Positions 4,801-60,939 of a DNA stretch of 64,000 bases are shown here, in pieces; positions within the stretch are counted from its first letter, which is position 1, and every line of letters begins with the position of its first letter. The notes under the pieces are model-generated. The model made no database searches. It had not been told where the DNA came from and was given only the letters and a program-made list of their open reading frames with translations. The DNA comes from Eledone cirrhosa (lineage: Eukaryota). The DNA lies in contig OZ024745.1 of NCBI GenBank assembly GCA_964016885.1, forward strand, positions 115,320,001 to 115,384,000. Reading direction: 5' to 3'. The position numbers and the translations under genes are program-made.

Positions 4801-6011
4801 ACAGTCACTTATCAACGTTAAAAAAACATAAAAATAAAACAAAACAAAACGTACAGACGAAAACAAAAACACCCGTTAATAGCATGTACTTGTTGAATAA
4901 GGCATGTCGTTGACTTTTTTGTTGGGATAAAACTTTCACTTTAGAGGAAGCCTCTACCTGGTGGATCGATTTACAAGAAATAACAGCTAAGTATCAAACG
5001 TCATAACATATTTAAACAAAGTTCCAGATAAAAAAGTACCAGTCTAGTACTGGGGTCAATTCTTCCTATGGGTTTAACTTTGCCTTTCATCCATTTGAGG
5101 CCGATAAAATAGTACCAGTCTAGTACTGGGTAGATATTCTTTCTCTACATCTCTTTTACAGTTCCATTCTCTCACTCTCTTTCCTTCTCTGGAAGAAATC
5201 TGCTGTACTCAGATCAGGAGAGGAGATGGGCTCCAACAGGTATCACAAATGCCCTGAGAAACGCTATATGACACCCCTACAATACCCCCTAGAGTTATGG
5301 GACCATACCATACTTTTACATGAGGCACTACATTAGATAATGTATTGCCTCATGTAAAAGATGAGTTCAACGTCTTTGATCATAACTCTGCCCAACAGGA
5401 CTTGACCTGGGGTTAAAGAACAACAATGAATATAGATTTATGCAAGCAGACACATTTCAGTTGAATATATTTTAGACGCATTTCATTCGAATAAATTTTA
5501 GACCCTATTGTGTACTGAGTTGTAGTTTTCGCTACAAGTTATTTTGTAAGGTTTCCTATGTTGCCTAGGTTCCTTAAAACACGTTCAAAATCTATGTGTA
5601 TACACATAGATTTATATAGAAATACATAAATATACAGATAGATGCACATATACACCCATACAGATATGTACTCTCAGGTTGTGTATAATATCCCCCCCAC
5701 CTACCGCTTATTAATTTTTCGGATTTTTTCCACCCCACGCTTATTAAATTTTGCTAATCTATCTCCAGAAAAATGTTATTGTAAGTGATTCATATTGATA
5801 CAGCAGCTGTAGAATCTAATAATTATTTTATTTCATATTTAAAAAAAAAACGATATATGACAAAAAAAGAACATTACAAGAAATCCCATATTTACGAACA
5901 TACACTATACAATCACAGATCACCCCACCCTCACCCAGAAGAATTTAAGGAAATGTCTACTCCACCCTCGCTTATTCCACCACGAAATTAGTTGGGACCC
6001 GAAAGTACGTG

Positions 6012-6042
<31 letters not shown>

Positions 6043-6043
6043 G

Positions 6044-6222
6044 AAAGATTCGGGACCCCAACGGTTGAGCTCCTGCCGTTTCAAGAGCTAGATCCGAACT
6101 AGCTGTTGAAACGGCAGGAGCTCAGCCGTTGGGGGCTTGAATCCTTCATAATACCCACTCCACTATCCCAAGTATCGAGTACCCTGGTGAATAATGGTCT
6201 AACTGGTTTTTACTGCATCCAT

Positions 6223-6228
<6 letters not shown>
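6044..6228 (+). mobile_element. snap-back palindromic PLE end (family A) in (TA)n
   Basis: Arms 6045-6147 around a 7-nt loop; right arm has the HHR 3' half gaaa-cggc..gagctc..gccg-tt; ~80-nt tail; (TA)n both sides. Confidence 0.75.
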
Positions 6229-6278
<50 letters not shown>

Positions 6279-6281
<3 letters not shown>

Positions 6282-6468
6282 AAAAGGTATGACTCCGACG
6301 GCAGAGCTCAAGCCGTTTCGACGGCTATTTCAGTCCTGAAATAGCCGTCGAAACGGTTTGAGCACTGCCGTCGGGGTCATACCTTTTCCTATCACCCACT
6401 CTACTACTCTAAGTATTGAGTACTCTAGTGCGTTATGGTCCATCTGGTTCCTTACCACAATTCCCTCG

Positions 6469-6470
<2 letters not shown>
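6279..6470 (+). mobile_element. snap-back palindromic PLE end (family B) in (TA)n
   Basis: Near-perfect palindrome 6279-6390 with gaaa-cggtttgagcactgccg-tc, then tail; homologous to 6545 and 31519 copies. Confidence 0.8.
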
Positions 6471-6544
<74 letters not shown>

Positions 6545-6547
<3 letters not shown>

Positions 6548-6740
6548 AAAATGTTAGACCCCGACGGCAGAGCTCAAGCCGGCTATTTCTGGACTAGCCG
6601 AGTCCAGAAATAGCCGTCGAGACGGCTTGAGCTCTGCCGTCGGGGTCTAACATTTTCCTATTACCCACTCTACTACCCTAAGTATTGAGTACTGTGGTGC
6701 GTTATGGTCCATCTGGTTCCTTACCACACCTCCTTCGTTA
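6545..6740 (+). mobile_element. snap-back palindromic PLE end (family B) in (TA)n
   Basis: Palindrome 6545-6661 plus the same tail (acccactctactac..gtattgagtac..atggtccatctggttccttaccac). Confidence 0.8.
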
Positions 6741-6752
6741 TATATATATATA

Positions 6753-7075
6753 CAAGACACACAGAAACAAGATGGCGTAGGACAGAACAGAGGAGAGGCA
6801 CAAAAACAAAGAAAACAATCCCCAGTCACTGAAGAGGTCACAGAAGTTGTGACGAAATAACTTTGACAATATATAAACAACCATCTGGTTGTGGAACCAA
6901 CCAACCAACCGGAAATTTATAAATTCCTAAATTTATAAATTTATTATAATAAATTGAAGTGAAAGCAACTGGTGCGTGTGTTTCTTATTGGCAACATGAC
7001 CCTCCCAAAGTATAACAATATCGGTTTCAACACACGTCTTCAGATAAAGAATCTTGCTAAACAAATTCAGAAACG

Positions 7076-7078
<3 letters not shown>
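6753..7078 (+). mobile_element. solo pLTR of PLE family C
   Basis: Matches the terminal repeat of the GIY-YIG element at 24.4-25.8 kb; flanked by (TA)n. Confidence 0.85.
6825..6867 (+). ncRNA. type I hammerhead ribozyme motif (family C pLTR)
   Basis: gtca-CTGAAGA-g gtcaca/tgtgac-GAAA-taac-TT-tgac; stem III pair mutated in this copy. Confidence 0.7.
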
Positions 7079-7163
<85 letters not shown>

Positions 7164-7324
7164 ATACTTTGGGAGGGTCATGTTGCCAAAGAATCTTGCT
7201 AAACAAATTCAGAAACGATATATATGTATATATATGTATATATATGTATATATGTATATATATGTATATATATATATATGTATATATATGTATATATGTA
7301 TATGTATATATATGTATATATATG

Positions 7325-7408: not shown

Positions 7409-7483
<75 letters not shown>

Positions 7484-7520
7484 CATGTACGTCAATACTC
7501 ATCCTTTTTTCTATTCAGAA

Positions 7521-7560
<40 letters not shown>

Positions 7561-7820
7561 TTCTGAATAGAAAAAAGGATGAGTATTGACGTACATAGGA
7601 CGATGTATTATTATTATCACATAGAAACGATCGTAAAGCAGTGAAGTATATTGCTAATGACTTGAATTTTTATTTCATTGTTTTAACTTATATCATGACT
7701 CTGTTTTCCTTTTGATGTTTTATTGTTTTCCGGGATTTATTTTAACGTACAACATTTTCAACATATGGATTACATTGAGTTCTTCATGCAGACTAGACCC
7801 CACAACTAACCCTGGATATT

Positions 7821-7884
<64 letters not shown>

Positions 7885-8076
7885 TAAATCTACCAAAAGT
7901 TTACGGTAGTGTCCAATCCGTATGAAGAACTCAATGTAATCCGGATATCATGGAAAGAAGAGATGCATTCAAAAATCACTTTCGGTGAAAGATAAACGGA
8001 ATACAGAGTCAAGATAAAATGTTAAAAAAATAATGAATAAAACAATGAAACAGTTCCTTATATTAAACAAAAAAAG

Positions 8077-8229
8077 TTCATTATTTAACGATCGTTTCTA
8101 GGACATATATGTGTTAGAATTGGCATGCATATTCAACAGATCTATGTACAAAATTATACAAAATTATACAAACTATCAAATATAATATACATACCAACAC
8201 ATATATATGCCGTCTTCAGAAATAATGAA
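8077..8229 (-). ncRNA. type I HHR with long stem II (mirror copy)
   Basis: Reverse complement of 8492-8644. Confidence 0.75.
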
Positions 8230-8491
8230 ATATATTTATTGATAATAACAACAATTCAAAATTACAGGTCTGTTTGGGAACAGAGTTCAAATTGACCAAT
8301 GAAATACACAAAATACACGTATGCATGTGAACATATATTTTTATGCATATCTGTGAACGAGGTTACTTACATATATACACACACCTAACTGTATTTTCTT
8401 GATATATTTTTGTGTATTTCATTGGTCAATTTGAACTCTGTTCCCAAACAGACCTGTAATTTTGAATTGTTGTTATTATCAATAAATATAT

Positions 8492-8644
8492 TTCATTATT
8501 TCTGAAGACGGCATATATATGTGTTGGTATGTATATTATATTTGATAGTTTGTATAATTTTGTATAATTTTGTACATAGATCTGTTGAATATGCATGCCA
8601 ATTCTAACACATATATGTCCTAGAAACGATCGTTAAATAATGAA
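8492..8644 (+). ncRNA. type I HHR with ~114-nt stem II
   Basis: 10-bp stem I ttcattattt/aaataatgaa, CTGAAGA, long stem II (atatatgtgttgg/ctaacacatatat), GAAA-cgatcg-TT (GUU site). Confidence 0.78.
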
Positions 8645-8700
8645 CTTTTTTTGTTTAATATAAGGAACTGTTTCATTGTTTTATTCATTATTTTTTTAAC

Positions 8701-8771
<71 letters not shown>

Positions 8772-8773
<2 letters not shown>

Positions 8774-9335
8774 TAGGTTATTCCGGGTTGAATCGGAGGT
8801 AACCACAGTAAGTAAGGTACTCAATACATAGCAGAGTGTAACAGTTTTAATATAGATGAGATTCTACAGGACTAGAACTGTTTCATTCTTGAGAAATCAT
8901 CAGGAATCTGACTGTCCAAATAAATGTGGTGGTATTTATATCTTTTCTTATGGTAGGAGAGGGTGGGGAGTGGGATGGGTGGAGGTCATTGGTTGAAAGA
9001 AAAGGGAATTCATTAAAAGCTAAGTCTTTAAAGCTATAATTTATATTTAGAGTGACAAAGGCAGAAAGAATTCTATAAACAAGTTCAAATTGGAGTGCCA
9101 CTCCTTATTTTTAAGTTTCTCTTAAGCCAACAATGCCTATATTTCAGGTGTCTATAAGATGGTTGGGGTCAGTCATGGTTGATGGGTTTAAAGAAAAGGG
9201 AAATTATTTAAAAGCTATATCTTTAAGGCTCTACTTAGAGTGACAAAGGCAGAGAGAATTCTATAAACAAGTTCAAATATTGGGTGCCTGTCCTTATTGT
9301 CATGTTTCTCTTAAGCTATATTTCAGGAGTCTACA
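8772..9335 (-). mobile_element. PLE 3' region and pLTR (family D)
   Basis: Contains an HHR and a tail shared with 32432-32617; internal duplication 8975-9150 / 9180-9330; abuts (TA)n. Confidence 0.7.
8859..8909 (-). ncRNA. type I hammerhead ribozyme motif
   Basis: agattc-CTGATGA-tttct ca agaat-GAAA-cag ttctagtc ctg-TA-gaatct (GUA site). Confidence 0.8.
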
Positions 9336-9459: not shown

Positions 9460-9671
9460 CACACACACATATATACACACACGCACACACACACACATAT
9501 ATATATATGCGCGCACATATATATATATTGAAGAGTTAAACAAAATTCAATGAGTATATCAAAGAATGAGTTTTACAGTAGATTGGAAGCACTCTACGAA
9601 AAATAATTTTCCGGAGTTATTAATATTAGAATATAAATATTAATAAAATAGATATTCTTTTGATCAATTAC

Positions 9672-9724
9672 ATTTTATTATACATATTTCGGATGTACAA
9701 CAGTACGTCCTCATCAGACAAAAT
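9672..9724 (-). ncRNA. type I hammerhead ribozyme motif
   Basis: attttgt-CTGATGA-ggacgtac tgtt gtacatcc-GAAA-tatgta-TA-ataaaat. Confidence 0.8.
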
Positions 9725-9966
9725 ATAATGATACATGACATACCCTGAGATGTTAAATGGTTAAGATTTAATCAAGGTAGTGATTAACCTAAGAGAAAAT
9801 TTAACATTTATACCCTAATAATGAGAAAATGCGAAAACGTAAACGTAATAAATTCAATAGAGAATGTGTGAGTAAGAAAAACGTTGCTTAATGTACCAGT
9901 TTTCTAGATTTTAATATGTATGATACTACAATTCATCTAGGAAAGCATTTCATGAATTATAACAGT

Positions 9967-10050
<84 letters not shown>

Positions 10051-11604
10051 GGGGGGGGAAGATGAGGGGGGTAATGTATGCAGATGGAGATTTTTTTCCG
10101 AAAGTTAAACGGTTAAGTTTGAAAATATTTAATTTATGTTATCTTAGGGTGATGTATCAATATTTTATTTTTTATTTTTAAATTGGTGGTTATTTATATA
10201 TTAGTTTTGTAAATTTTATAAGTGTGTTAACACTTCTAAGCTTCGACAAAACTTCGGAACTGTGGAGTTTACCACAACTCTAGTATATCAAATAACTGCG
10301 CACTCTGTACAATGGAGACCCTGTTGATTATTAATAACTATGAGACCCTAATTAACAAAAAAAGTGAATTATTCTCTAGTTGCCTCCATAAAGTTATGCC
10401 CACATTCTTAGCCTCCCACAAAACGAGAAAAAAAGAGAGAGAAACATTAAACCATTAAAAACTTGGTTGTCAGACGTATAAAATTAACAGGGAAAAACTT
10501 TAGTGGCCTTTAATATTGCACTATCTTATATCTATCTATAGAAGAAATAACGCTCGAATGAAAGACACTTGTTCAATAACATGCCGGAACATTGATACAC
10601 ATAACATTATTCTGTTGATTTTGATCCATACCATTATTTCTTTATTTCTCTACCCTTATCTTCCTACTTAAGTTTTAAATCTGAGTTTTATATCCAACCC
10701 TTACATCTTTACTGAACTTATTTATAACTGTGAATTTTTCATGCGTTTCTGATCTCTTATTTATAATATGTATGTAATTATATTTTCTATGTTTTTAAAT
10801 ATACCTACCGCATTCTTATATCCATGATTCAAATATAGAGCAAATATCCAAATTACAAATTATTATAAACATTATTTTGAACTATGAATTATCCATGCAT
10901 TTATTATTGTTTTTCTTATATATATATGTATTTAACTTTAACACGTAGAACTTTATTATATAAAATTATAACCGTTATCATTTACCTAAAGTATACTGTA
11001 TCACTAATACCCAATATAAGATATATCCATATATAACTCCCTGTATCTTTCTATACATAATTTTCAGTTAACTTCTAAATTTTAGATTGTTTTTACTTTG
11101 AGCTAGGAATAATTAATACATTTACACACGGTTATATACGGGTATATATTTAATTTTAACATGCCTCAATCTATTATTTTATTTTAATTTTATTTTCATT
11201 ATCATTTACCTAAAATATACTGGCTCATTAATTAATATATATCTATATACATAACCGTTATTTAAATTTTTCTAACAATAAGTACTTCAAAAGCTTTACA
11301 TGCCTAATACGTTGACAATGACTAACTTCATTAAAGAATACATTTAGGAAAATATTCAACAGTGTAAACTTTCCTTAATAATGGCCAGCTAAATCCTTTA
11401 AATCTTATTATTAAAAAAATTCAGAAGCTTAGAAGTGTTAACATACTTATAAAATTTACAAAACTATTATATAAATAACCACCAATTTAAAAAAAAAAAA
11501 AAAAAATATTGATTCTTCACCCTAAGATAACATAAATTAAATATTTTCAAACTTAACCGTTTAACTTTCGGAAAAAAATCTCCATCTGCATACATTACCC
11601 CCTC

Positions 11605-11667
<63 letters not shown>

Positions 11668-11903
11668 ACTGTTATAATTCATGAAATGCTTTCCTAGATG
11701 AATTGTAGTATCATACATATTAAAATCTAGAAAACTGGTGCATTAAGCAACGTTTTTCTTACTCACACATTCTCTATTGAATTTATTACGTTTTCGCATT
11801 TTCTTATTATTAGGGTATAAATGTTAAATTTTCTCTTACGTTAATCACTACTTTGATTAAATCTTAACCATTTAACATCTCAGGGTATGTCATGTATCAT
11901 TAT

Positions 11904-11956
11904 ATTTTGTCTGATGAGGGCCTACTGTTGAACATCCGAAATATGTATAATAAAAT
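11904..11956 (+). ncRNA. type I hammerhead ribozyme motif (stem II partly decayed)
   Basis: Mirror of 9672-9724 with intact CTGATGA and GAAA. Confidence 0.7.
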
Positions 11957-11984
11957 GAACATCTATTTTATTAATATTTATATT

Positions 11985-12036
<52 letters not shown>

Positions 12037-14394
12037 CATATATATACACATATACACACATACATACACACACACATACATACATACATATACACATACA
12101 CATACATATACACATACATATATATATATGTATATATATGTATATAAATATTAAATTTAAAGTGTATTAGAGTGTTACGCTGTAACAAACCTTACATATC
12201 TATAATGAAACAACGTCATGAAGATCTATAAATTTATGCGTTAAAATAGAAATAAAAATATTTAAAAAACGTAGAATTTCTACCAGGTTTACACATTATT
12301 ATAATTCAGGTAAACATAACTAAATGACTGAAACTATAGCGTGCTAGGTTAAAACATCTTACGTCTATTTATTTAAGGTGTTTAAGGTTCTTTATGGCAC
12401 ACTTTGACTTATATCACACCGGAATTGATGAAATAAGTATTAGACGTGTACTGAGTTAGAGCCAGTATTTGTTGTCTTGTAGAAATGCTAAAAGCAATAT
12501 TCTAATTACTGACGTTTAAGAAATGTCTAACGGTTTTATCGAACTGTGCATCTTCTCTGCTCGGTTATTTTGTCTGTATGCACTTGTTGAGAGAAGATGG
12601 GCTGTTGGTAGATCTTGAAATCAAAAGTACACATAATTCTAGATATTTCAGTTTACTCAGCTGTCGATAATACCTCCATATCCTCTGAGAATATGACCTG
12701 GAATAGACTCTCTTATATGAAACTGAGGTAAGCAACGTCTCCTATGAGCTGCAGGAGACCGTGAAATCATTTCTTTGGAAGCATTTCAAATAGATTAATG
12801 ATAACCAAGACACATTGGAGGTGTTTACAATGGGAATAATCACACCGGAAGCCAAAAGAGATGTTGGTACTTGTCTGGAATCTTCTAAGCATGAAGATAA
12901 AAATATGAAAATAAGTAAAACAATAAGGATAATGAATATTCTAAGATATTCAATAGTTTAAATTTCTTGGATCTTTCGTGTTTTATATTCCATTTAACTT
13001 TGTTCAATCAATCTATAATGGTGTTTACGTGTCGCCACTTTTCGAGCCTAACCTCGACTTCAGACATATTTTCTAGCGGTTTTTAGTCGGAAAATCTTTA
13101 AATATTATTGCAACGACACATTAAAGAGATTTAGACATATAAACAGATGATTAGATTGTTAAAATCTTTGTAGTGCTAAAATCCCCCCAGTCACTGCTAC
13201 TATAATGTTTCCTGTTCCTCTGAACAAGAAAACTGTCTCTTACTTGATGAACTCTCTTCTCCCACGAACATCATTCTTTCTATCTCCGCTTAACAAACCC
13301 CATATAATCTAGGGCGGGTAAAATTCCCGGGGTTGGCTCTTTTTAATTGCTGATAATACTTTACCGGCGTCACTCGAATAAGGTAATTATTTAACCCATA
13401 AATGAGGCCCTAACAGGTACTATTACTTCGGACCAGAGCAGACCTAAGAGTGATAAAAACTAAGAGGTAACTCCACATTCCCCACAGCTCCTGAACTCCC
13501 GAACTGCAGCCTTGCCACTGGATATAGTTTAATGTCATACCCACGATATAAATCACCTCTAAAATCGTTCTGATCAGAATTGTAACCTACAATTTTCCCC
13601 CGACCACGTTTTCCTTTCAGACATCGATTACTGACTCTCAATCTGCAGATCATTTGCTTGTTATGGGTTAGTAGTGTATATTCAACTAACCTGCATCACT
13701 CCTGGGCTTTGCTACTGATTCTGATAACGAAAAGAAAAAGGAAACAACAACTCGTAGTTCACTTTCTAGGTACCATTTCCACAGTGATTAAAATAAGGAC
13801 CACTAATACATTGATTTCAATTAAGGTCAGAATGGGTTTTCAGAGTAATAAAGGAGAACAACCAGCAGTTAACGACATTATCATTCTTAATTATGATTAT
13901 TTATCGATCCTGGAAAGACAGCAAAGTTGACAACGGTGGGATTGGAATTCAGAAGGTAAAACAATACAAATTAATATCGATAATTAACTGATTCCGTCAA
14001 TTATCCCGCCCCCCTCCCCCGAGTGTTAATATATTGATTGTCAGATAGAGAAACAAAGCCTTACTGGTACTTTATGGACCCAGTCAAAGTTGATACGCTT
14101 GTACCATTGCTAGTATCAAACAGACTGCTTCAAGCAGTCTGTTTGATACTAGCAATGTAATTGTTGCTTATAGTATTTATAAAAAGCATCACATATCCTC
14201 CCACACATTTCCCGTAATATTTATTGCTTTGTGTAATGGACGTGTGTAAGAATAACGCCTACACGAGACTAACATATGAACGAGAAAACAAGAGTCAGAA
14301 TTTGTAAATGGTTCTATGTATCTTATCTATTTCTTTCTTCCTTTTGTTGTGTTTCTAAAAAAAAATAATCCATCGTTTGAATTTAGATATTAAT

Positions 14395-16399: not shown

Positions 16400-16403
<4 letters not shown>

Positions 16404-16754
16404 GTATAGTGATAGCTATGGTGCTTCCGTAGGCGGTATGCCAAAATTAGCACTCGATATTCATCAGAGTAGAGTGTAGATATTATAAAGAAAACGAAAA
16501 ATCAGTGATGCATCTGGACTTAGTTTATTTCGTGTTACAAATGTTTCGCCGGCATGTAGTTCGAGTCATGGTCCTTGTATGGATCTGGCTGATTCTATAC
16601 TTCTGCGGGTTCTTTCAGACACGTCTGTTATGTCCGGAGCAAATTTTATCACCATGACTCAAGGCCCATGACTCGAGCTACATGCCGGCGAAACATTTGT
16701 AACACGAAATAAACTAAGTCCAGATGCATCACTGACTTTTCGTTTTCTTGATGC

Positions 16755-16755
<1 letters not shown>
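16400..16755 (-). mobile_element. fold-back PLE end in (TA)n
   Basis: Inverted arms ~16488-16578 and 16660-16750; tail on the left. Confidence 0.75.
16531..16623 (-). ncRNA. HHR-like motif with 1-nt core insertion and long stem II
   Basis: cgtgt-CTGAAAGA-...-GAAA-ca tt tg-TA-acacg. Confidence 0.55.
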
Positions 16756-21345: not shown

Positions 21346-22190
21346 GGTGTGGGTGTGTGTGTGTCCTAATTTTGGCAAAGTCTATACAAATCGACATTTC
21401 TACTCCGATAGACTTCAAACTTGCATTTATATATTCCTTGCGGTCTAAAGATATTAACTGCGGCTTTTATTTTTCAATTTTCTGTTGTTAAAGGCGTTTT
21501 TTTTTCACTAAAACTTTAAACCTTTTTTTCATTTATGCAATTTTGTCTACAATGTTCAAAAGAGACAACTCTTTAGTATTTTGAAAGAGTTACCTCTCTT
21601 TATAGACTATATTATCTCTATGTAAACGTACATCCCTTGAAATTGTTGATGGTGACCCCATTAGTAACTCTGAAGCGTTCGGCATCCGATATAACAGTTC
21701 GGTCTATATCAGATTGGGTAGATTTAGGAAGAGGCTATGGTCTCCTGTGGGGAAGGCCCAACATGCTGTGGGGAAGGCCCAACATGCTGTGTGGTTGCAT
21801 GACATGTCTTACTCAAACATTGCAGGCTTTACTCTGTACAGTATGCATGCAGGTGCAATAGACATAACTTATAATGTGTGTCTAGATGACTGGGTGCGAA
21901 TCTATAAAACTCGAAACGTACCTAACCGATTCTTTCCAAATGGAAGAAAAACCATACTCTAAGATTTAGTACGCTTAACGAATATCCAGCTGGTTTTCTT
22001 CAGATTTTGCAGATGCATGCAGATGTTTGACGATTCGGGCCTGTTGGTGTTCTACATTTCCAGTAGATGAACAATCATTCCCTGAGAATAAGGGAATTCA
22101 AAAAGTAAACAGCTACATTCCTCAATATTTGCATATGCGTGTTGCTATTTCACGTTTCCTACCCCGTGCAACGCCGGGTCCTGCTGCTAG
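21336..22190 (+). mobile_element. non-autonomous Helitron-like element
   Basis: Ends in GC hairpin cccgtgcaacgccggg followed 8 nt later by CTAG then T; starts in (TA)n/(GT)n. Confidence 0.55.
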
Positions 22191-22427
22191 TGTGACGAAT
22201 GTGTGACGAAAGAACTTTGACAATATATGAACAATCGTCTGGTTGTGGAACCAACCAACCAGAAATTTATAAATTCCTAAATTTATAAATTTAATTTATA
22301 ATAAATTGAAGTGAAAGCAACTGGTGCGTGTGTTTCTTTTTGGCAAAATGACCCTCCCAAAGTATAACAATATCGGTTTCAACACACGTTTTCAGATAAA
22401 GAATCTTGCTAAACAAATTCAGAAACG

Positions 22428-22430
<3 letters not shown>
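22191..22430 (+). mobile_element. truncated pLTR of PLE family C
   Basis: Matches 6845-7078; begins within HHR stem II and ends at (TA)n. Confidence 0.85.
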
Positions 22431-28830: not shown

Positions 28831-30310
28831 TTTATCATTTTATAAATTTCTACCAAGAGAAAGAGAGGGAGAGAGAACGAGAGAGTCGGTTTCTAACATA
28901 GAACCAAGACTCGTTCATTAGAATTTAGACAACATCAACTAAATACGTATGCATGTCTGTATATACTTGTGTATGTGCATGATGTTATTGTATGTGTCTA
29001 TATGTACACGTGCATGTTTCTGTGTCTATACATTGAGTATATGCAATTATTACATGCTGAATTTCTGAAATGTTTCACATATTTTTACAGTTCCATAAAT
29101 GGACTGTTCTTGTTGGTTCATAACTAGCCGTGATCTTCCTGTTTCTGTGAAGACCAGCTTCTCTAGATTTATACTGAAGCAGTTAGTAACATATCTCAGA
29201 GCTCCAATAATAACAGGTACAAATCTGAAGGTATACTCGGGGTGGAGTATCTGCAGATTTTGCATTAGTTCAGCATAAATGTTCTCCCCTTCAATAATCT
29301 TTAGCATAATATTGACATCTGCTGAACAGCTGATTTCCACTACTGTGCATGTCTTCTTTTCTCTGTCCCATATTATGTCTAGCCTGTTATGTTTGCATTA
29401 CATTGGATTGGCAGTATCGGTAGAGAGTCGGACGCCATGCTTTGCAGCATAAAGTTACGGTCCTTTATAATCTGAGTTCAAATCCCGCCGAGGTTAACTT
29501 TGCCTTTCATCCTTACGGGGTCGATAAAATAAGGTACCAGTAATGCACTGGGGTAATTGCTGGCCTTGTGCCAAAAGCAGAAACAATTATATTGGATTCG
29601 CAGTATCGGTAGAGGTCGGACGCCATGCTTTGCAGCATAAAGTTACGGCCCTTTACGGTCTGAGTTCAAATCCCGCCGAGGTTAACTTTGCCTTTCATCC
29701 TTACGGGGTCGATAAAATAAAGCACCAGTAATGCACTGGGGTAATTGCTGGCCTTGTGCCAAAATCAGAAACAATTATATTGGATTCGCAGTATCGGTAG
29801 AGGTCGGACGCCATGCTTTGCAGCATAAAGTTATGGCCCTTTACGGTCTGAGTTCAAATCCCGCCGAGGTTAACTTTGCCTTTCATCCTTACGGGGTCGA
29901 TAAAATAAAGTACCAGTAATGCACTGGAGTAATTGCTGGCCTTTTGCCAAAAGTAGAAACAATTATATTGGATATTTGACTGGAACATTTCACCCATATT
30001 CTTTCATATAATGTACACATATGTCATCAACATCACTGCATATGTTTATTCTCAAGACTATCCTTTCTACAGATATCATTGTATAGTGTTTTGGTCACTA
30101 CATCATGTCCCGTAGGTAGATAGCATCGTGATGACATCCTTGAACAGCTATTTGTGATGTGGGTGACATCCTCGATGTTTATTCCTCAGATTATGCAACT
30201 GTTGTCAGATCTAGGTATTTTGCCTGCATCTGTTATGCATCAGGTATTTGGTTGTTATTTCTTGTTCTAGGATTGCAAAAGCGTATCCTTCAAAGTGGGA
30301 GCCAGTATGC
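28831..30310 (-). mobile_element. R4/Dong-like RLE non-LTR retrotransposon 3' part, interrupted by a SINE trimer
   Basis: CII*GINIEDVTHITNSC..GHDVV knuckle region, HNRLDII..VVEISC, VPVIIGAL; 3' UTR matches 41680-41920; ends at (ACAT)n. Confidence 0.85.
29402..29973 (+). mobile_element. three tandem 188-bp Nin/Deu-core tRNA SINEs
   Basis: A box tggcagtatcgg, B box gagttcaaatcc, core gcctttcatccttacggggtcgataaaat; attggat at both ends. Confidence 0.92.
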
Positions 30311-31124: not shown

Positions 31125-31453
31125 AGTAGCGGTCTGACGGACATATATAAAAGAAATGTCCAATAACTACCGGAGTGGCTCAATGAATAAATCAGAGCGT
31201 TATAAATTTATAAATGGGAGACGTCAGCAAGATAGATTCATAAGAATTAACTATACTTACTTCAGATAACCCGATTGCAGATTCCTAGTGTAAAACCGAT
31301 ATTAGACGTCCTAATATCCTCTTATTATAGTCCCCTGAAAGTCCCCTGAAGAGCTGTGTTCTCCCGATATTGGATTTCCAAAATTGCAGTCATGATATCT
31401 GAAGTAAGTATAGTTAATTCTTAAGAATTTATCTTGCTGACTTCTCTCATTTA

Positions 31454-31458
<5 letters not shown>
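31125..31458. mobile_element. fold-back element next to (TA)n
   Basis: Inverted arms ~31207-31280 and 31383-31456. Confidence 0.65.
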
Positions 31459-31518
<60 letters not shown>

Positions 31519-31520
<2 letters not shown>

Positions 31521-31707
31521 CGAAGGAGATGTGGTAAGGAACCAGATGGACCATAACGCACCAGAGCACTCAATACTTAGGGTAGTAGAGTGGGTAATAG
31601 GAAAAAGTATGACCCCGACGGCAGAGCTCAAGCCGTTTCGACGGCTATTTCTGGACTCCAGAAATAGCCGTTGAAACGGCTTGAGCTCTGCCGTCAGAGT
31701 CATACTA

Positions 31708-31948: not shown

Positions 31949-32394
31949 CATAATCTCAGCGAGGAAAGCACCAACGCCATACGCAAAGCCATCAGAAGAG
32001 AGGGCCTTAATATCAAACTAGCTCACTCTGGACCTTCACTACGAAGGTGTCTCTCCAAAAGAGGCAACCCCAAACGAGGATAATAGATGAAGCCTTCCCA
32101 ATTTCCCTCTCCGCAACACTAATTGTTGCCTACGTACCTACGTAGTGTACAGGCTAGAATGTAACAAGTGCAATCTATTTTACATAGGCAGCCCTATTTG
32201 ACCGTTACATCTCCGTATTAAAGAGCATGTTAACACCAAGGCTCTGATACCATCAACACTATAAACACAGAGAGGTGGCATATCTAAGAACTGAGTAACT
32301 GCCTGATGAGGTCATAGCCATTCAATGGCTATCATCGAAATATATATAGCAGTAAATAAAGGATTATGAGTTCATGCAATTTACTTATGTTTCG

Positions 32395-32399
<5 letters not shown>
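31947..32399 (+). mobile_element. internally deleted PLE 3' end (GIY-YIG remnant plus HHR)
   Basis: YVVYRLECNKCNLFYIGS..PLHLRIKEH at ~32140-32230; (TA)n flanks. Confidence 0.8.
32298..32353 (+). ncRNA. type I hammerhead ribozyme motif
   Basis: actgc-CTGATGA-g..atagcca ttcaa tggctat..c-GAAA-tatata-TA-gcagt. Confidence 0.82.
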
Positions 32400-32431
<32 letters not shown>

Positions 32432-32434
<3 letters not shown>

Positions 32435-32616
32435 TTTTAATATAGATGAGATTCTACAGGACTAGAACTGTTTCATTCTTTAGAAATCATCGATGATTTC
32501 TAAATAATGAAACAGTTCTAGTCCTGTAGAATCTCATCTATATTAAAACTTTTATACTCAGCAATGTATTGAGTACCTTACTTACTGTGGTTACCTCCGA
32601 TTCAACCCGGAATAAC

Positions 32617-32617
<1 letters not shown>
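32432..32617 (+). mobile_element. snap-back palindromic PLE end (family D)
   Basis: Palindrome 32434-32549 centred on atcatc/gatgat, inside the HHR CTGATGA core; same tail as 8780-8850. Confidence 0.82.
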
Positions 32618-32667
<50 letters not shown>

Positions 32668-40341: not shown

Positions 40342-40848
40342 AGCATCGGACAGCATGCTTTTACGGTATAGAGTTACGAGCCTTTATATTTTGAGTTCAA
40401 ATCCCGCCGAAGTTAACTTTGCTTTCATCCCTACAGGGTCAATAAAATAAAGTACCGGTAATGCACTCGGGTCGATTTAATCGACTTTCCCCTCCCCGCA
40501 ATTGGTGGTCTTCTGCCTAAATTAGAAACCATTATTGGGGAATTGGCAGTATCGGTAGAGAGTCGGACGCCATGCTTTCTAGCATAGTTACGTCCCTTTA
40601 CAGTCTGAGTTCAAATCCCGCCGAGGTTAACTTTGCCTTTCATCCTTACGGAGTCGATAAAATAAAGTACCAGTAATACACTGGGTAATTTCTGGCCTTG
40701 TGCCTAAAGTAGAAACAATTATTATAGGTTAGTTTTGCCTTTCATCCTTACAGGGTCGATAAAGTACCAGTAATGCACTGGGGTCGATTTAATCGACTTT
40801 CCCCTCCTCCAATTGCTGGCCTTGTGCCTAAATCAGAAACCATTATTG
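40342..40848 (+). mobile_element. head-to-tail cluster of 3 Nin/Deu-core SINE copies
   Basis: B boxes at ~40393 and ~40607; 3' fragment at 40735. Confidence 0.88.
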
Positions 40849-42128: not shown

Positions 42129-42358
42129 TGTATAACCTGTATGGAGAGGTTGAAAGGTTTAAAGAAGGCTGTGAGTTCTTTTCTGAACCTGTCGCAAGCA
42201 CGTGGGCCGCACTTTGTCATGGTCAAAAGACCGTCGTCACGGTACAAACCACCGCCCACGTTGGGGATATCTTCCTTGATAAAGAAAAGAAGGTAAAGGC
42301 CGATAAGATCAGTAACCTCCGCAGAATCGCTGGTGCCCATACTCACGCCGAATGGGGT
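42129..42358 (-). pseudogene. inverted duplicate of the PLE RT catalytic segment
   Basis: PFGVSMGTSDSAEVTDLIGL..GLYRDDGL..LSIQV, an inverted copy of ~43588-43812. Confidence 0.9.
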
Positions 42359-42462
42359 TTGCCAGGGAACGTTTCCACGAACCAAAGTATCGTCTTCCTG
42401 TCTTCCTTCGGTTGCAACGTTTTTTGAAATATTTACTTCTGCGTTCACAGATTGACATTTTT

Positions 42463-42513
42463 AGTTTCACAAGATCCCGTTAAGGGTGAAAGCAGCGATT
42501 CTTTGCTTAAAAT
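42463..42513 (+). ncRNA. degenerate HHR in 5' pLTR (second copy 45972-46022)
   Basis: Two-copy consensus agttt-CAGAAGA-tccc gttaa gggt-GAAA-gca..tgc-TT-aaact. Confidence 0.55.
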
Positions 42514-42667
42514 TTAATCTGTTATTTTAATAAATATTTTCTCTACGGTTCTTATATATCGGATATATATTTATCCTTATCGAGCCCTCTTTGGATTTTA
42601 GTCTTCAAATTTATTATTATAACTATTTGGTTCCCTCGGTTGAGCACTCTATTGACTTATATTCATC

Positions 42668-44795
42668 ATGCAGAAGAAACATCTGAATATTTCTACAAAG
42701 AACATACCCGTACCAAGCAGGAAAACATACCTAAAACTCCTGATACAGAAAACAGACGCGTTCATTAAAAGGTTGCGTTGGCGTGTCTTTTATTTCTATA
42801 ACCAGGGAAAAGCAGACAACAAACAGGATAAATTTGGGTTTAAAACCTATAATAACCCTCCGAGTAACCTAGCATTGCTACCATTCGAAAATGATGTCTT
42901 GGAACTCATACGGAGTATCAAATTTCGGAATAGGAGCAATTCTTTCCAGCAGGACCTGAAGAATAGAATTCGTTCTATTAAGGATTCTAATGCCGTGCAC
43001 GTCCATTCCGACAAAACTGGCAATCTATATCAAGTGGAGCGCACTACTTACCATCAACTGCTACATAATGCTGTAACTAAGGATTACCGTAAAACTAATT
43101 GGAGTGTCATTAATGAAATCAACGATGCTGGGTTTAATATCACCTCTGATCTCAACATCCTGGACCGGACCGAACCTCTGGACCCTATTTCTCCCCACTT
43201 TACCCTGAAGGATCACAAATACAATTTCCCGAACAACCCCTCTATTCGGTTTATTAACCCTACGAAGTCCGAGTTAGGTAGACTTAGTAAAAGGATTTTA
43301 GATAGAATTATACCTGAAATTAGAAGCTTGACCCCTCTTGCACTGTGGAACAATTCTTTCGCGGTGATTGATTGGTTCAACGGCATATGCAACAAGGAAC
43401 ATTGCCGTTTTATCCAATTCGACATCAATAATTACTACTCCTCCGTCACATTACCACTTCTTCTTAGAGCTATCAATTTCGCTAAACACTCACAGTGGTT
43501 AAGGATTTCGAAGTTGATGTCATCCTCAATGCCCGTAAGTCGGGGATTAATTTCGACGACTCTATTTGGATTAAAAAATCAAATAGTACCCCATTCGACG
43601 TGAGTATGGGCGCCAGCGATTCGGCGGAGGTTACTGATCTTATCGGCCTTTTCCTTCTTTTCTCTGTCAAGGAAGAATTCTCCAACGTGGGCGGCGGTTT
43701 GTACCGTGACGATGGTCTTTTGACCATGACAAAGTGCGGCCCACGTGCTTGCGACAGATTCAGAAAAGAACTCACAGCCTTCTTTAAACCCTTTAACCTC
43801 TCCATACAGGTTGAGGCCAACCTCTCGGTCGATAATTACCTCGACTTTAGCCTCGATTTGTCGAATGGCTTGCACTACAAGTATAGAAAACCGAATGATA
43901 CGCTTAATTACATAAGTAAACATTCTAACCATCGTACCAGCATAACCAAGAACCTGGTAAGAAATGTTTCTATGAGGCTTTCCCGTCTATCAACAAACGA
44001 GCATATTTTCAACGACCATTCTACATATTACAATGAAGCTCTTGCTAGGAGTGGATTTGTCGATAAGGTAGCTTATACAGAGTACAAGAATAGACATAGG
44101 AAAAATAGATCCCGACGCATTATATAGTATAACCCACCATATAATATGGAGGTGGCCACATCATTAGCTAAGATCTTTCTCTCCCTTATTATGAAGCATT
44201 TCCCCCAGCACATAAATATAGTAAAATCTTTAATAGAAATACCATTAAAATTTCTTACTCTACGACTCCTAACCTTGCACATAACATCACAGCTTAAAAT
44301 TTAGTTAAATTACATAGCCGTAGGAACACGTGCAACCCTGTAGCTAGTACTAACTGTAATTGTAGGAACCGGGTTGACTGCCCCCTATCCGGGAAATGCC
44401 TCTCTAGTAACATTGTCTACAAATGTAAGGTTGAAACACCCACGTCCTGTAGGGCCTACATAGAGTTAACTGCCAATAGATTCCAGCAGCGTCTTTACAT
44501 GTATACCCATTCTTTTCTTAACCCTTTAAGAAGGAATATGACGTCACTTTCAGCTTATATCTGGAGTCTAAAAGACAACTACGCCCAATATAAGTTACAC
44601 TGGGAGATCCTAGCTAGGGGTATATCATATAACGGAAATAAAAGACCATGTGACCTCTGCGCCGCTGAGGCCCTGGAAATACTCTACGCCAAAGACCACA
44701 ACTTAAACAAAAAATCTGAGGCAATTTCGGCTTGTAAACATAAATTGCACAAAACTTTCCTATATTACAGCCCCACATTATACCCTAACGGATAG
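42668..44795 (+). pseudogene. PLE polyprotein: RT (YRDD) plus C-terminal GIY-YIG
   Basis: SDKTGN, FIQFDINNYY, MGASDSAEV, GLYRDDG, YLDFSL, SNH, YNPPY, KISYS, CNCRNRVDCPLSGKC, NIVYKC, CDLCAAE, LNKKSE..CKH; frameshifts near 43490 and 44215, stops near 44125 and 44296. Confidence 0.93.
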
Positions 44796-49610: not shown

Positions 49611-50295
49611 AGGGTGGATTGGCAGTATCGGTAGAGGGTCGGACGCCATGCTTTGACGCATAGAGTTACGGCCCTTGCCATTCTGATTTCAAATCCCGCC
49701 GAGGTTAACTTTGCCTCTCATCCTTACGGGGTCGATAAAATAAAGTACTGGGATAATTGTTGGCCTTGTGCCAAAAAGTAGAAACAATTATATATATATA
49801 TATTATATATATTACATATATATATATGATATATATATTATATATTTATATTATATATATATATGATATATATATTATATATAATTGTTTCTACTTTTGG
49901 CACAAGGCCAACAATTATCCAGTACATTACTGGTACTTTATTTTATCGACCCCGTAAGGATGAAAGGCAAAATTAACTTCGGCGGGATTTGAACTCAGAG
50001 CGTAAAGGGGCGTAACTATTTGCTGCAAAGCATGGTGTCCGACCCTCTACCGATACTGTCAAACCACCGCCCTAAAATTATATTATAATATTATTATTAT
50101 AGGGCGGTGAATTGGCAGTATCGGTAGAGGGTTGGACGCCATGCTTTGATGCATAGAGTTACGGCCCTTGCCATTCTGAGTTCAAATCCCGGCTAGGTTA
50201 ACTTTGCCTTTAATCCTTACGGGGTCGATAAAATAAAGTACCAGTAATGTACTGGGTAATTGTTGGCCTTGTGCCAAAAGTAGAAACAATTATAT
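49611..50295. mobile_element. three Nin/Deu SINEs in +/-/+ orientation
   Basis: +49611-49790, -49882-50072, +50101-50295, with AT-only spacers. Confidence 0.92.
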
Positions 50296-50687
50296 TATTA
50301 TTATATATAATTATATTATTATATTATTATTATATATATATATATATTTTATATATATAAAGAGAGATGTATTTTAATTATGTCTCATATAAAATAATAC
50401 AACTGGCTATCCGCAAAATACGTATAGTTAGCACCCCAAACGTATAATTGGGATTATACTAAGGTATATCCTAATGTTTGTTGAGTGAGAGGGAAGCCGG
50501 TCGGAGTATTGCTTAAAGCTTTCTCTGTTAATGTATTAAATATATATATATATATATATGTGTATATATATATATATGAAAAACATGGGGAGAAGAATAC
50601 TGCATGGTTGCACATGGAATACATATTATAAAATTAGTCCCTCATCAGTGATTTGCCAACGATCATTGGTATTTCATCGCATTATAT

Positions 50688-56794: not shown

Positions 56795-57538
56795 GTCTAC
56801 AACATTCCCAACTTTCTCGTAACGCTATGTAAACTTGCAATAGGTGCATCTAGACTGATATAGCATTACCATATGTTATCTTTGATTACCCAATATAACT
56901 AAACTTGCAGTTTAGTGTCAACCTATTATAAATAGCAAACAAATCTCCTTCACATCATACACTAAGCTTTTAAAACGAGGAAGCATATATTGGACAATTA
57001 AGTCCTAGATATACTGTCACTAAACCAGTCGGTGTGATCAACAGTAGAGTATCTTTGGCCAAATATTTTCCAGATCAAGGTTGCTCCAGGGTACAACAAT
57101 AACAACAACAATCGATTTATATATTATGGATGACTGATAAATCATATATCGATTGTTTTTGTTGTTGTTTTCCCATGAATCAGCGTTGATAGCCGTGGCC
57201 ATCTCATCTTTTTATGTATAGTGTACCCCAGATGACATTATCGAACAAATCCTATTTAATGTTGTAGATATGGTCTGAGAGAGATTTAGATGCTTTTCTA
57301 GAGGTTTCCGCGCTGGTTCTCTAGAATTCGAGGATACCACTATTATTAAGATATCTTAATTCTGAACATGCAAATAAACAAATAAATATAAGATATAAAT
57401 AAATAAAAAAATGCAGATCTGACTGATCAGCAAAATATGCTAATATGCAAATATGCTAATATGCAAATCAGGCCGATCAGTCATTGTATATTTTAGAAAA
57501 TATCATATATTTTCACTAGCTCTGACAGTTGGCAGGTG

Positions 57539-59779: not shown

Positions 59780-60018
59780 CAGTCATGGGCAACCTGCGGC
59801 CAAGTTACCATTTTGTACCCCAACTTTTCAGTCGTAAATTTATCATTTCTACGAGCGAGGAAAACAACGCGTGCGAATTCTGAAGAAACAAATCAAAACA
59901 ACCTGAGTTACGGCTCATTTTTTAATGTGGGCACGAATGTAAATGAGCGCTTGCGACCCGCCTGATGATGAGCCATATCTCATGCAGTCCGCTTCTCGAA
60001 AAGGGTTGCCCATGCTTG
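59780..60018 (-). mobile_element. hAT-type MITE, same family as 56511
   Basis: TIRs cagtcatgggcaacc / ggttgcccatgcttg; 8-bp TSD tactagat at 59772 and 60019. Confidence 0.9.
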
Positions 60019-60585
60019 TACTAGATGTTCTCTCTTCAACCCAATACTAGATGACTCTCTCTTCAACCCAATACTAGATGTCTCCCTCTTCAACCCAATA
60101 CTAGATGACTCTCTCTTCAACCCAATACTAGATGACTCTCTCTTCAACCCAATACTAGATGTCTCCCTCTTCAACCCAATACTAGATGTCTCCCTCTCCA
60201 TCCCAATACTAGATGTCTCTCTCTTCATCCCAATACTAGATGTCTCCCTCTTCATCCCAATACTAAATGTCTCTCTCTTCATCCCAATACTAGATGTCTC
60301 CCTCTTCAACCCAATACTAGATGTCTCCCTCTTCATCCCAATACTAGATGTCTCTCTCTTCATCCCAATACTAGATGTCTCCCTCTTCAACCCAATACTA
60401 GATGTCTCTCTCTTCATCCCAATACTAGATGTCTCCCTCTTCATCCCAATACTAAATGTCTCTCTCTTCATCCCAATACTAGATGTCTCCCTCTTCAACC
60501 CAATACTAGATGTCTCCCTCTTCATCCCAATACTAGATGTCTCCCTCTTCATCCCAATACTAGATGTCTCTCTCTTCATCCCAAA
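60019..60585. repeat. 27-bp minisatellite, ~21 copies
   Basis: Unit tactagatgtctc(c/t)ctcttca(a/t)cccaa. Confidence 0.96.
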
Positions 60586-60939
60586 TGTGTAGCTGCGCTG
60601 AAATGACTTTTGTTTCATATTTTATATTTCATATCATCAAGAAACTTTCTTTATACATTTGTTAAGGACGTTCAGTAGTAATATAAACTAAAATTAACAG
60701 AATGAAATATTTTCTATAGTGCCATTGTACTTACTAAGCAGTTTTGTGCTTGACTGCAAACTTAGTAAAATATTTCTGCGCCACCATTTTCTGTTTTTTC
60801 TTCACTTTTTCGAGAAATGTATAACATTGTTTTACAAGAAGTGTATAAGGGTCAACGGCCATCCAAAAGTGTGTAAATATATATATATACACATGTACAT
60901 GTGTGTGTATATGCATGGGTGCATGTGTATGTATAGGCA

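What the first reader, a model, noticed from the sequence alone, without database searches (positions are those of the whole stretch)
32432..32617. Parent and derivative pair showing fold-back inside the HHR catalytic core
Seen: the intact family-D HHR is at 8859-8909 (-). The same sequence here is a ~116-bp palindrome turning at atcatc/gatgat, just 5' of stem II within CTGATGA. This in-window control shows that the palindromes derive from HHR-bearing pLTRs. The family-C copy at 22191 is also truncated inside stem II.
Basis: seen in the sequence. Interest (0 to 1): 0.72.

Follow-up and report, generated by a model that had tools for sequence, protein, structure and literature searches.

The report
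Mirror-image Penelope stub at ribozyme edge
This 116-base DNA palindrome with a one-sided tail is a stub of a very abundant ribozyme-bearing repeat, likely left when a Penelope-type jumping gene copied the front end of its RNA onto both sides of one DNA cut; the layout is a known one, and related copies more often turn just before the ribozyme's catalytic core than inside it.

Summary
Observation confirmed: 58-bp arms, one mismatch, no spacer, turning between U4 and G5 of a type I hammerhead (HHR) core; arm plus tail match 8901-8777 at 119/125. The 8859-8909 copy is a sibling, not the donor. The layout (inverted tail-less pLTR, direct pLTR, tail, in (TA)n) is the published Penelope-like (PLE) insertion pattern. 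Public reads show family D is highly abundant and has two fixed 3' ends. Its head-to-head joints cluster at 8901-8909 (8 of 12 shown; six at 8906/7), the ribozyme's 5' edge; most reads keep the core intact. So 'fold-back inside the core' fits this copy, not the family. Best mechanism (inferred): both target strands prime reverse transcription from two internal start sites; the cDNAs stop near the RNA's 5' end (TATA-predicted at 8909) and join head to head. A 59-nt non-overlapping inversion at 7156-7218 supports two primers over snap-back. The RNA start is untested; subfamily divergence may inflate the hot-spot. The family-C example is confounded by a Helitron-like end. This scan noted the same pattern in other genomes and elsewhere in this one.

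The parts
32399..32432 (.). (TA)17 target microsatellite left of the insertion; one extra G at 32433; no target-site duplication can be read inside (TA)n
32434..32491 (-). Short inverted arm: family-D pLTR from G5 of the HHR core to the tail-less 3' end (= 8901-8844)
   Evidence: end at 8843/4 recurs next to TA in 434 (X16) and 548 (X17) reads, and 418 (X17) and 399 (X18) reads
32492..32549 (+). Direct arm with a 5'-truncated HHR: G5-A9 32492-32496, stem II 32497-32508, GAAA 32509-32512, stem III to 32527, A17 32528, stem I 3' strand 32529-32534; C3, U4 and the stem I 5' strand are missing, so it cannot fold as a monomeric HHR
32550..32617 (+). One-sided 68-nt tail with a CACTCT..TATTGAGTAC-like motif shared with in-window families B and G; predicted to fold as a small hairpin in this copy
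32618..32667 (.). (TA)25 target microsatellite right of the insertion
8859..8909 (-). Intact type I HHR of family D (sibling copy); predicted cleavage after A8865
   Evidence: stem I pair 8907/8861 varies on both sides in reads (unphased)
8933..8940 (-). TATAAATA whose first T lies 31 nt upstream of A8909, the first base of the HHR: predicted promoter, untested
   Evidence: chance of such a word within 5 given positions 0.4-0.9%, picked post hoc
8772..8843 (-). Tail of the sibling copy, followed by (TA)34
8988..9333 (-). Two degenerate repeats (78% over 169 aligned nt) upstream of the sibling HHR, a partial tandem; may be a decayed ORF end, not shown
7156..7218 (.). Family-C mini-insert in (TA)n: inverted piece ending at the tail-less end (rc of 6988-7021) joined by a 2-nt overlap to the last 31 nt of the tail (7046-7076); both 100% identical, not overlapping in the element
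6040..6739 (+). Three family-B palindromic stubs (6040, 6280, 6546) with the same layout; long arms start 16, 16 and 18-23 nt 5' of the GAAA box
31519..31706 (-). Fourth family-B stub; long arm starts 17 nt 5' of the GAAA box, as the finding does
22191..22429 (+). Family-C copy that resumes at loop II of its HHR, abutting a Helitron-like 3' end (22163-22190)

Best explanation
The locus is an ORF-less stub of an abundant hammerhead-bearing repeat, likely inserted by a Penelope-like (PLE) RT-endonuclease that primed reverse transcription from both strands of one cut in (TA)n. Inferred steps: the protein binds the RNA at the tail and nicks both strands; one 3' end primes at the tail end (8772-8777), the other at the tail-less site (8843/4); both cDNAs run towards the RNA's 5' end and stop at or shortly before it; they are then joined head to head. 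The RNA's 5' end is predicted to lie at the first base of the ribozyme (TATA 31 nt upstream), which would put most turns at 8906-8909 and some, like this one at G5, a few bases further in. The template must have been uncut at this HHR, since both arms read through the cleavage site. On this reading the ribozyme marks where copying ends because the RNA starts there, not because its core causes the turn. Shown: anatomy, two fixed 3' ends, clustering of joints. Inferred: PLE enzyme, two primers, RNA start.
For: (1) The layout equals the published PLE pattern of inverted 5'-truncated copy plus one-sided tail (PMC8557442 passages; PMC3846280 passages). (2) The short arm ends at a fixed site: 8843/4 next to TA in 399-548 reads per raw run, and 5-7 nt before the shared CACTC motif in the 4 in-window stubs measured. 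(3) In vitro, a PLE protein cuts and extends both strands, starts at two internal sites that bracket the tail, is predicted to dimerise, and uses uncut RNA as its main template (PMC11167929 parts 1-2). (4) 7156-7218 joins an inverted piece ending at the tail-less end to a tail-only piece with no shared sequence; snap-back of one cDNA cannot make this without a later deletion. (5) 8 of 12 opposite-strand joints shown have their lower end at 8814-8837, just 3' of the second start site, as twin priming on one RNA predicts. (6) Zero- and one-base spacers (this copy; 8906-8906; 8887-8888) leave no loop for a priming hairpin. (7) Upper ends: 8 of 12 in 8901-8909 (post hoc p about 0.006 on the narrowest null); depth falls from 1,324,324 (8892-8899) to 24,739 (8916-8923) in X1 and from 3461 to 546 in X16. 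(8) TATAAATA at -31 to 8909. (9) Another in-window HHR family (C) follows GIY-YIG-like ORF remnants.
Against: No ORF ties family D itself to a PLE; upstream there is only degenerate sequence, and Pfam and NCBIfam recognised none of the in-window ORF pieces as RT or GIY-YIG. The RNA start rests on a motif picked post hoc; D. virilis Penelope has a TATA-less internal promoter (PMC2377424 passages) and its helix I 5' end maps to an intron end, not to the start (PMC4209133 part 2); family D also has CAG|ATTC there. A common subfamily differs from the reference at 8907-8909 and at 8830-8843, and another leaves at 8910 (328 reads in X16), so alignments can end at these places by divergence, inflating both clusters and the depth drop. 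Only 15 of 37 joint rows were shown and 15 of 36; RAD reads count loci unevenly and rows are not independent. The 8907/8884 joint has a 4-nt GAAT/ATTC microhomology that fits snap-back equally well (351 and 406 reads leave at 8907, consensus agreement 0.54-0.57). Two of 9 in-window structures turn 94 and 487 nt upstream of the HHR. The exact 32491/32492 junction was not listed as spanned by a whole piece in any of 4 runs.
Confidence: 0.5

Rival explanations
1. Snap-back or self-priming: one cDNA primed at the tail end stalls in or at the HHR, its 3' end folds back and copies itself, and the endonuclease or repair fixes the short arm's end. This is the first reader's 'fold-back' and close to the self-priming reading of PMC3846280.
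For: Near-symmetric turns at variable places (8888, 8901, 8906); the 8907/8884 joint with 4-nt microhomology; the spacer of the 6040 stub appears to continue the long arm; both arms of each stub share copy-specific bases.
Against: This copy has no spacer and no microhomology in the sibling sequence; the short arm's end is fixed; the 7156-7218 insert has non-overlapping pieces. A stall on HHR structure would be expected where RT enters the fold (8859-8885), not where it leaves (inference).
Confidence: 0.25
2. A palindromic non-autonomous master (MITE- or retrozyme-like) with a broken HHR amplified, so that shared turning points reflect descent and escape from self-cleavage rather than repeated events.
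For: Some joints are carried by several contigs (8888-8906: 11-12 contigs); tandem units of about 78 nt exist in family D ('goes back 64/65'); animal retrozymes are proposed PLE derivatives (bioRxiv 10.64898/2026.07.22.740005, part 1).
Against: Turning points differ between copies in families D and B; arms within a copy share variants that differ between copies; most family-D reads keep an intact core.
Confidence: 0.12
3. The cluster at 8906/7 is an alignment edge or a splice acceptor: copies come from subfamilies with another upstream sequence, or from RNA spliced at CAG|ATTC, and true 5' ends are not enriched at the HHR.
For: Subfamily differences at 8907-8910; in D. virilis the intron end maps to the 5' end of helix I.
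Against: The opposite-strand rows at 8906 are listed without intervening letters; five in-window stubs read directly from the sequence start 16-23 nt before GAAA.
Confidence: 0.1
4. Assembly or library chimera at this locus.
For: No listed read or contig spans the whole stretch.
Against: Only 58 bp are mirrored, flanks differ, arms differ at one base, the short arm ends at a natural recurrent end, and like joints (8903-8906, 8906-8906, 8888-8906) recur in X1, X2, X16 and X17.
Confidence: 0.03

Closest known systems
Endonuclease-positive Penelope-like element insertions with inverted pLTR and one-sided tail (PMC8557442; PMC3846280)
   Same: Head-to-head inverted 5'-truncated copy next to a direct copy, tail on one end only, palindrome at the junction, HHR in the pLTR, (TA)n or AT-rich target.
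   Different: No ORF at all; tail 68-72 nt rather than 30-40 bp; clustering of the turn at the HHR 5' edge is not described in the passages read; the published reading is self-priming.
Poseidon PAc from Anolis in vitro (PMC11167929)
   Same: Two internal start sites bracket the tail; both strands are extended; uncut RNA is the template. Family D has two fixed 3' ends.
   Different: In the parts read (1-2 of 4, and a search for 'inverted' and 'twin') the paper does not use this to explain inverted arms; in PAc the ORF starts at stem II, in family D no ORF follows the HHR.
Twin priming of L1 (Ostertag and Kazazian 2001, seen only as cited in PMC10191854; details recalled)
   Same: Two target ends prime on the element RNA and the products join head to head, giving non-overlapping inversions such as 7156-7218.
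   Different: In L1 the second priming site is variable and gives inversion without duplication (recalled); here it is fixed and the arms often overlap into a palindrome.
Minimal and type I HHRs of metazoan PLEs (PMC4209133) and animal non-LTR retrozymes (bioRxiv 10.64898/2026.07.22.740005)
   Same: Type I core in a widespread short repeat; tandem units occur in family D.
   Different: Helix III is 4 bp with an 8-nt loop, and G10.1-C11.1 is replaced by U.U; this locus is a single broken unit, not a tandem.

Membership tests
Type I hammerhead ribozyme (8909-8859) | Core C3-U4-G5-A6-N7-G8-A9, G12-A13-A14, A15.1-U16.1, H17 | tested here: met
Type I hammerhead ribozyme (8909-8859) | Helices I, II and III | tested here: met
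   6, 3 (+U.U) and 4 bp; HHR fold -4.2 against MFE -7.6 kcal/mol; both sides of pair 8907/8861 vary in reads, unphased
Type I hammerhead ribozyme (8909-8859) | G10.1-C11.1 pair | tested here: not met
   U.U at 8896/8885
Type I hammerhead ribozyme (8909-8859) | Match to an Rfam hammerhead model | tested here: not met
   no hammerhead family at E<=10 on 8780-8990; none for any in-window HHR at E<=1
Type I hammerhead ribozyme (8909-8859) | Self-cleavage | not testable with these tools
   needs an in vitro assay
EN+ Penelope-like element insertion | Inverted 5'-truncated pLTR beside a direct pLTR, head to head | tested here: met
EN+ Penelope-like element insertion | Tail on one end only; two recurrent 3' ends | tested here: met
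EN+ Penelope-like element insertion | HHR in the pLTR | tested here: met
EN+ Penelope-like element insertion | RT + GIY-YIG ORF in an autonomous partner of family D | tested here: inconclusive
   only degenerate sequence upstream of the sibling; the family-C ORF has GIY-YIG-type look-alikes at 0.96 in the Atlas (family on 27-40% of members), no Pfam or NCBIfam hit
EN+ Penelope-like element insertion | Target-site duplication | tested here: inconclusive
   cannot be read in (TA)n
Animal non-LTR retrozyme | Two or more tandem units, each with a complete HHR | tested here: not met
   single broken unit at this locus; tandem joints exist in other family-D reads
Animal non-LTR retrozyme | Circular RNA | not testable with these tools
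   needs RNA data for this species

The most novel reading that the evidence does not exclude
These stubs are the failed 'strong-stop' products of Penelope-like replication: the RNA starts at the first base of the hammerhead, a dimeric enzyme primes from both target strands at two fixed internal sites, and a full-length copy forms only if the cDNA jumps from the RNA's 5' end to a ribozyme-cut 3' end (the 45 nt from 8909 to 8865 would be the terminal redundancy). Tens of thousands of stubs would then map RNA start, start sites of reverse transcription and joining chemistry for each family, and give the PLE hammerhead a defined job.
Probability: 0.25. Interest if true: 0.72.

Novelty: new member of a known kind. 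Interest (0 to 1): 0.38.

Why it matters
How PLEs make inverted pLTRs and what their hammerheads do are stated open questions (PMC8557442, PMC11167929). The single locus is ordinary, but the family is abundant enough that its junctions can separate twin priming from self-priming and test whether copying ends at the RNA start.

Tried and rejected
Whole-genome histogram: no genome is held for this window, so read laying stood in for it. Collection scans with a family-D pattern found 0 matches in metagenome contigs and 0 in viral contigs. No RNA holder was listed for 8772-9160; expression and RNA start were not examined. Rfam: only sub-threshold miRNA-type hits on palindromes and microsatellites, rejected. 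Pfam (5 ORF pieces) and NCBIfam (2) gave nothing useful. Cleavage-site model (copies start at 8864): 0 of 12 opposite-strand joints shown; only a minor class (32491->32529: 1 contig, 1 read, also explained by stem I complementarity; 24-25 reads in X16/X17 whose direct arm appears to begin at G1.1 of a variant subfamily); rejected as the main route, not excluded as a minor one. Family-B turns could not be placed against the core because no intact family-B HHR is in the window; they are given as distance to GAAA only. 31210-31454, 7480-7601, 14105-14157, 5313-5360 and 57074-57190 were left out of the tally of 9 because no clear HHR or another layout was seen. Family-C 22191 rejected as support. 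Literature searches gave no paper whose read passages describe breakpoints clustering at the HHR edge; 'twin priming' occurs 0 times in the four PLE papers ranked first. The library lacks most subscription papers, and no supplements were read.

Full report
Observation. The palindrome is real: arms 32434-32491 and 32492-32549, 58 bp, one mismatch, no spacer, folding at z -17.8 against 200 shuffles. It sits between (TA)17 and, after a further 68-nt tail, (TA)25. The right arm and tail match 8901-8777 at 119 of 125. At 8909-8859 (-) lies a complete type I hammerhead: stem I 6 bp, CTGATGA, stem II 3 bp plus U.U, GAAA, stem III 4 bp, predicted cut after A8865. Motifs of this quality occur 8 times in the window against 0.27 on average in 30 local shuffles. 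Rfam does not recognise it. The 'parent' is a sibling: each copy carries the minority allele at 3 of the 6 differences.

Not an artefact, as far as testable. Only 58 bp are mirrored and the flanks differ. The short arm ends at a place where 434 and 548 raw reads (X16, X17) and 418 and 399 reads (X17, X18) pass into TA. Joints 8903-8906, 8906-8906 and 8888-8906 occur in all four runs (at most three samples, two studies). The exact junction was not listed as spanned in any of the 4 runs; a one-base-shorter version appears in 3 contigs and 4 reads, and 2 of the 8 X1 contigs listed cross the centre with gaps.

Where the family turns. No genome is held, so I laid public runs on the sibling and on the palindrome. 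Family D is highly abundant (9916 contigs laid in X1). Depth falls at the HHR's 5' edge: X1 1,324,324 at 8892-8899, 98,701 at 8908-8915, 24,739 at 8916-8923, at most 124,293 further upstream; X16 3461, 781, 546. Of 37 joint rows 15 were shown, 12 of them opposite-strand; their upper ends are 8924, 8909, 8885, 8907, 8907, 8901, 8906, 8893, 8888, 8906, 8906, 8906. Eight lie in 8901-8909, six at 8906/7, one inside the core, none at the cut site (post hoc p about 0.006 on the narrowest null, rows not independent). At the palindrome's centre 1345, 1367 and 1468 reads continue with intact upstream core. So turning inside the core is true of this copy but is not the family's rule. Caveat: a common subfamily has a different stem I (both sides of pair 8907/8861 vary, unphased) and differs at 8830-8843, and a tandem subfamily leaves at 8910, so part of the drop and of the clustering may be alignment edges.

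In the window, nine head-to-head structures carry a recognisable HHR 3' half. Five (6040, 6280, 6546, 31606, 32434) start 16-23 nt before GAAA; two have one arm starting in or near the HHR (16485; 24657, 27 nt before C3); two turn far upstream (94 and 487 nt). The four family-B stubs may be related and lack an intact parent here. The family-C copy at 22191 resumes at loop II behind a 6-nt direct duplication and abuts a Helitron-like end (motif recalled), so it does not support the claim.

What it is. The layout matches published endonuclease-positive PLE insertions: inverted 5'-truncated copy, direct copy, tail on one end (PMC8557442, passages; PMC3846280, passages and Discussion), with HHRs in pLTRs (PMC4209133, parts 1-2 of 4). 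Family D has no ORF evidence of its own; family C in the same window follows an ORF remnant with GIY-YIG-type look-alikes, unrecognised by Pfam and NCBIfam.

How it most likely forms. PMC11167929 (parts 1-2 of 4) shows a PLE protein that cuts and extends both target strands, starts at two internal sites bracketing the tail, and copies mainly uncut RNA. Family D has two such fixed ends, and short arms stop 5-7 nt before a shared tail motif in the 4 stubs measured. The 59-nt insert at 7156-7218 joins an inverted piece ending at family C's tail-less end to the last 31 nt of the tail, with no shared sequence: the geometry of twin priming (seen as cited in PMC10191854, passage), not of snap-back. 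Eight of the 12 family-D joints have their lower end at 8814-8837, just past the second start site, which fits the same picture, subject to the alignment caveat. Spacers of 0-1 nt leave no loop for hairpin priming. I therefore infer two cDNAs joined head to head. They would end together if both ran off the same RNA 5' end; TATAAATA lies 31 nt upstream of A8909. That last step is the weakest: D. virilis Penelope has a TATA-less promoter (PMC2377424, passages) and an intron end at helix I, family D has CAG|ATTC at the same place, and no RNA was examined. Snap-back remains possible, and the 8907/8884 joint with 4-nt microhomology fits it.

Novelty. The insertion is a new member of a known kind. 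Clustering at the HHR edge and twin priming in PLEs were not described in the passages read from seven searches; older subscription papers and all supplements were not seen. My reading was recorded before I saw the scan's notes; these report the same pattern in other genomes and two-ended insertions in this genome. They are unchecked and add no independent support; two of them point to turns at or past the cut site, which is a minor class in family D.

Verdict. Observation confirmed; interpretation partly supported. Interest 0.38: ordinary locus, useful handle on an open mechanism.

Noticed in passing
window 7156-7218: 59-nt family-C insert in (TA)n made of two non-overlapping pieces in opposite orientation, each ending at one of the family's two 3' ends; clean twin-priming geometry.
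   Followed up: yes
window 8017-8704: 297-bp arms, 100% complementary, 94-nt spacer; each arm holds an HHR-like motif with a stem II of about 120 nt and palindromic loop III; tail on the left arm only; turns far upstream of the HHR. Very young or an assembly product.
   Followed up: partly
window 9628-10244 and 11424-11986: Large head-to-head pair of one HHR family with a 1.2-kb spacer; arms reach 487 nt past the core.
   Followed up: partly
window 8847-8924 (reads): Family-D reads with 'goes back 64/65' joints and 14 letters between: a tandem unit of about 78 nt holding one HHR, a very small retrozyme-like repeat.
   Followed up: no
window 32298-32398: Intact HHR of another family right after a decayed GIY-YIG-like ORF end, sharing the (TA)17 run with the finding's short arm.
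   Followed up: partly
window 22163-22190: Hairpin plus CTAG resembling a Helitron 3' end (recalled motif), abutting the family-C copy.
   Followed up: partly
window 29397-29973, 49613-50330, 40346-40847 and others: Abundant ~188-nt SINE-like repeat with a B-box-like word, in tandem (3 copies at 29427) and in inverted pairs around (TA)-rich spacers.
   Followed up: no
window 42134-44795: PLE-like RT and GIY-YIG ORF remnants with an inverted 225-bp internal piece (42134-42358 / 43588-43812); no HHR found at its end by my descriptor.
   Followed up: no
window 16400-16755: Head-to-head element whose long arm keeps an HHR with a long stem II and an extra base in the core, while the short arm starts inside stem II.
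   Followed up: partly
window 14105-14157, 5313-5360, 57074-57190, 7480-7601, 31210-31454: Further short palindromes without a clear HHR or with another layout.
   Followed up: no
window 59921-60703: 27-bp tandem repeat, about 20 copies, open in several frames.
   Followed up: no
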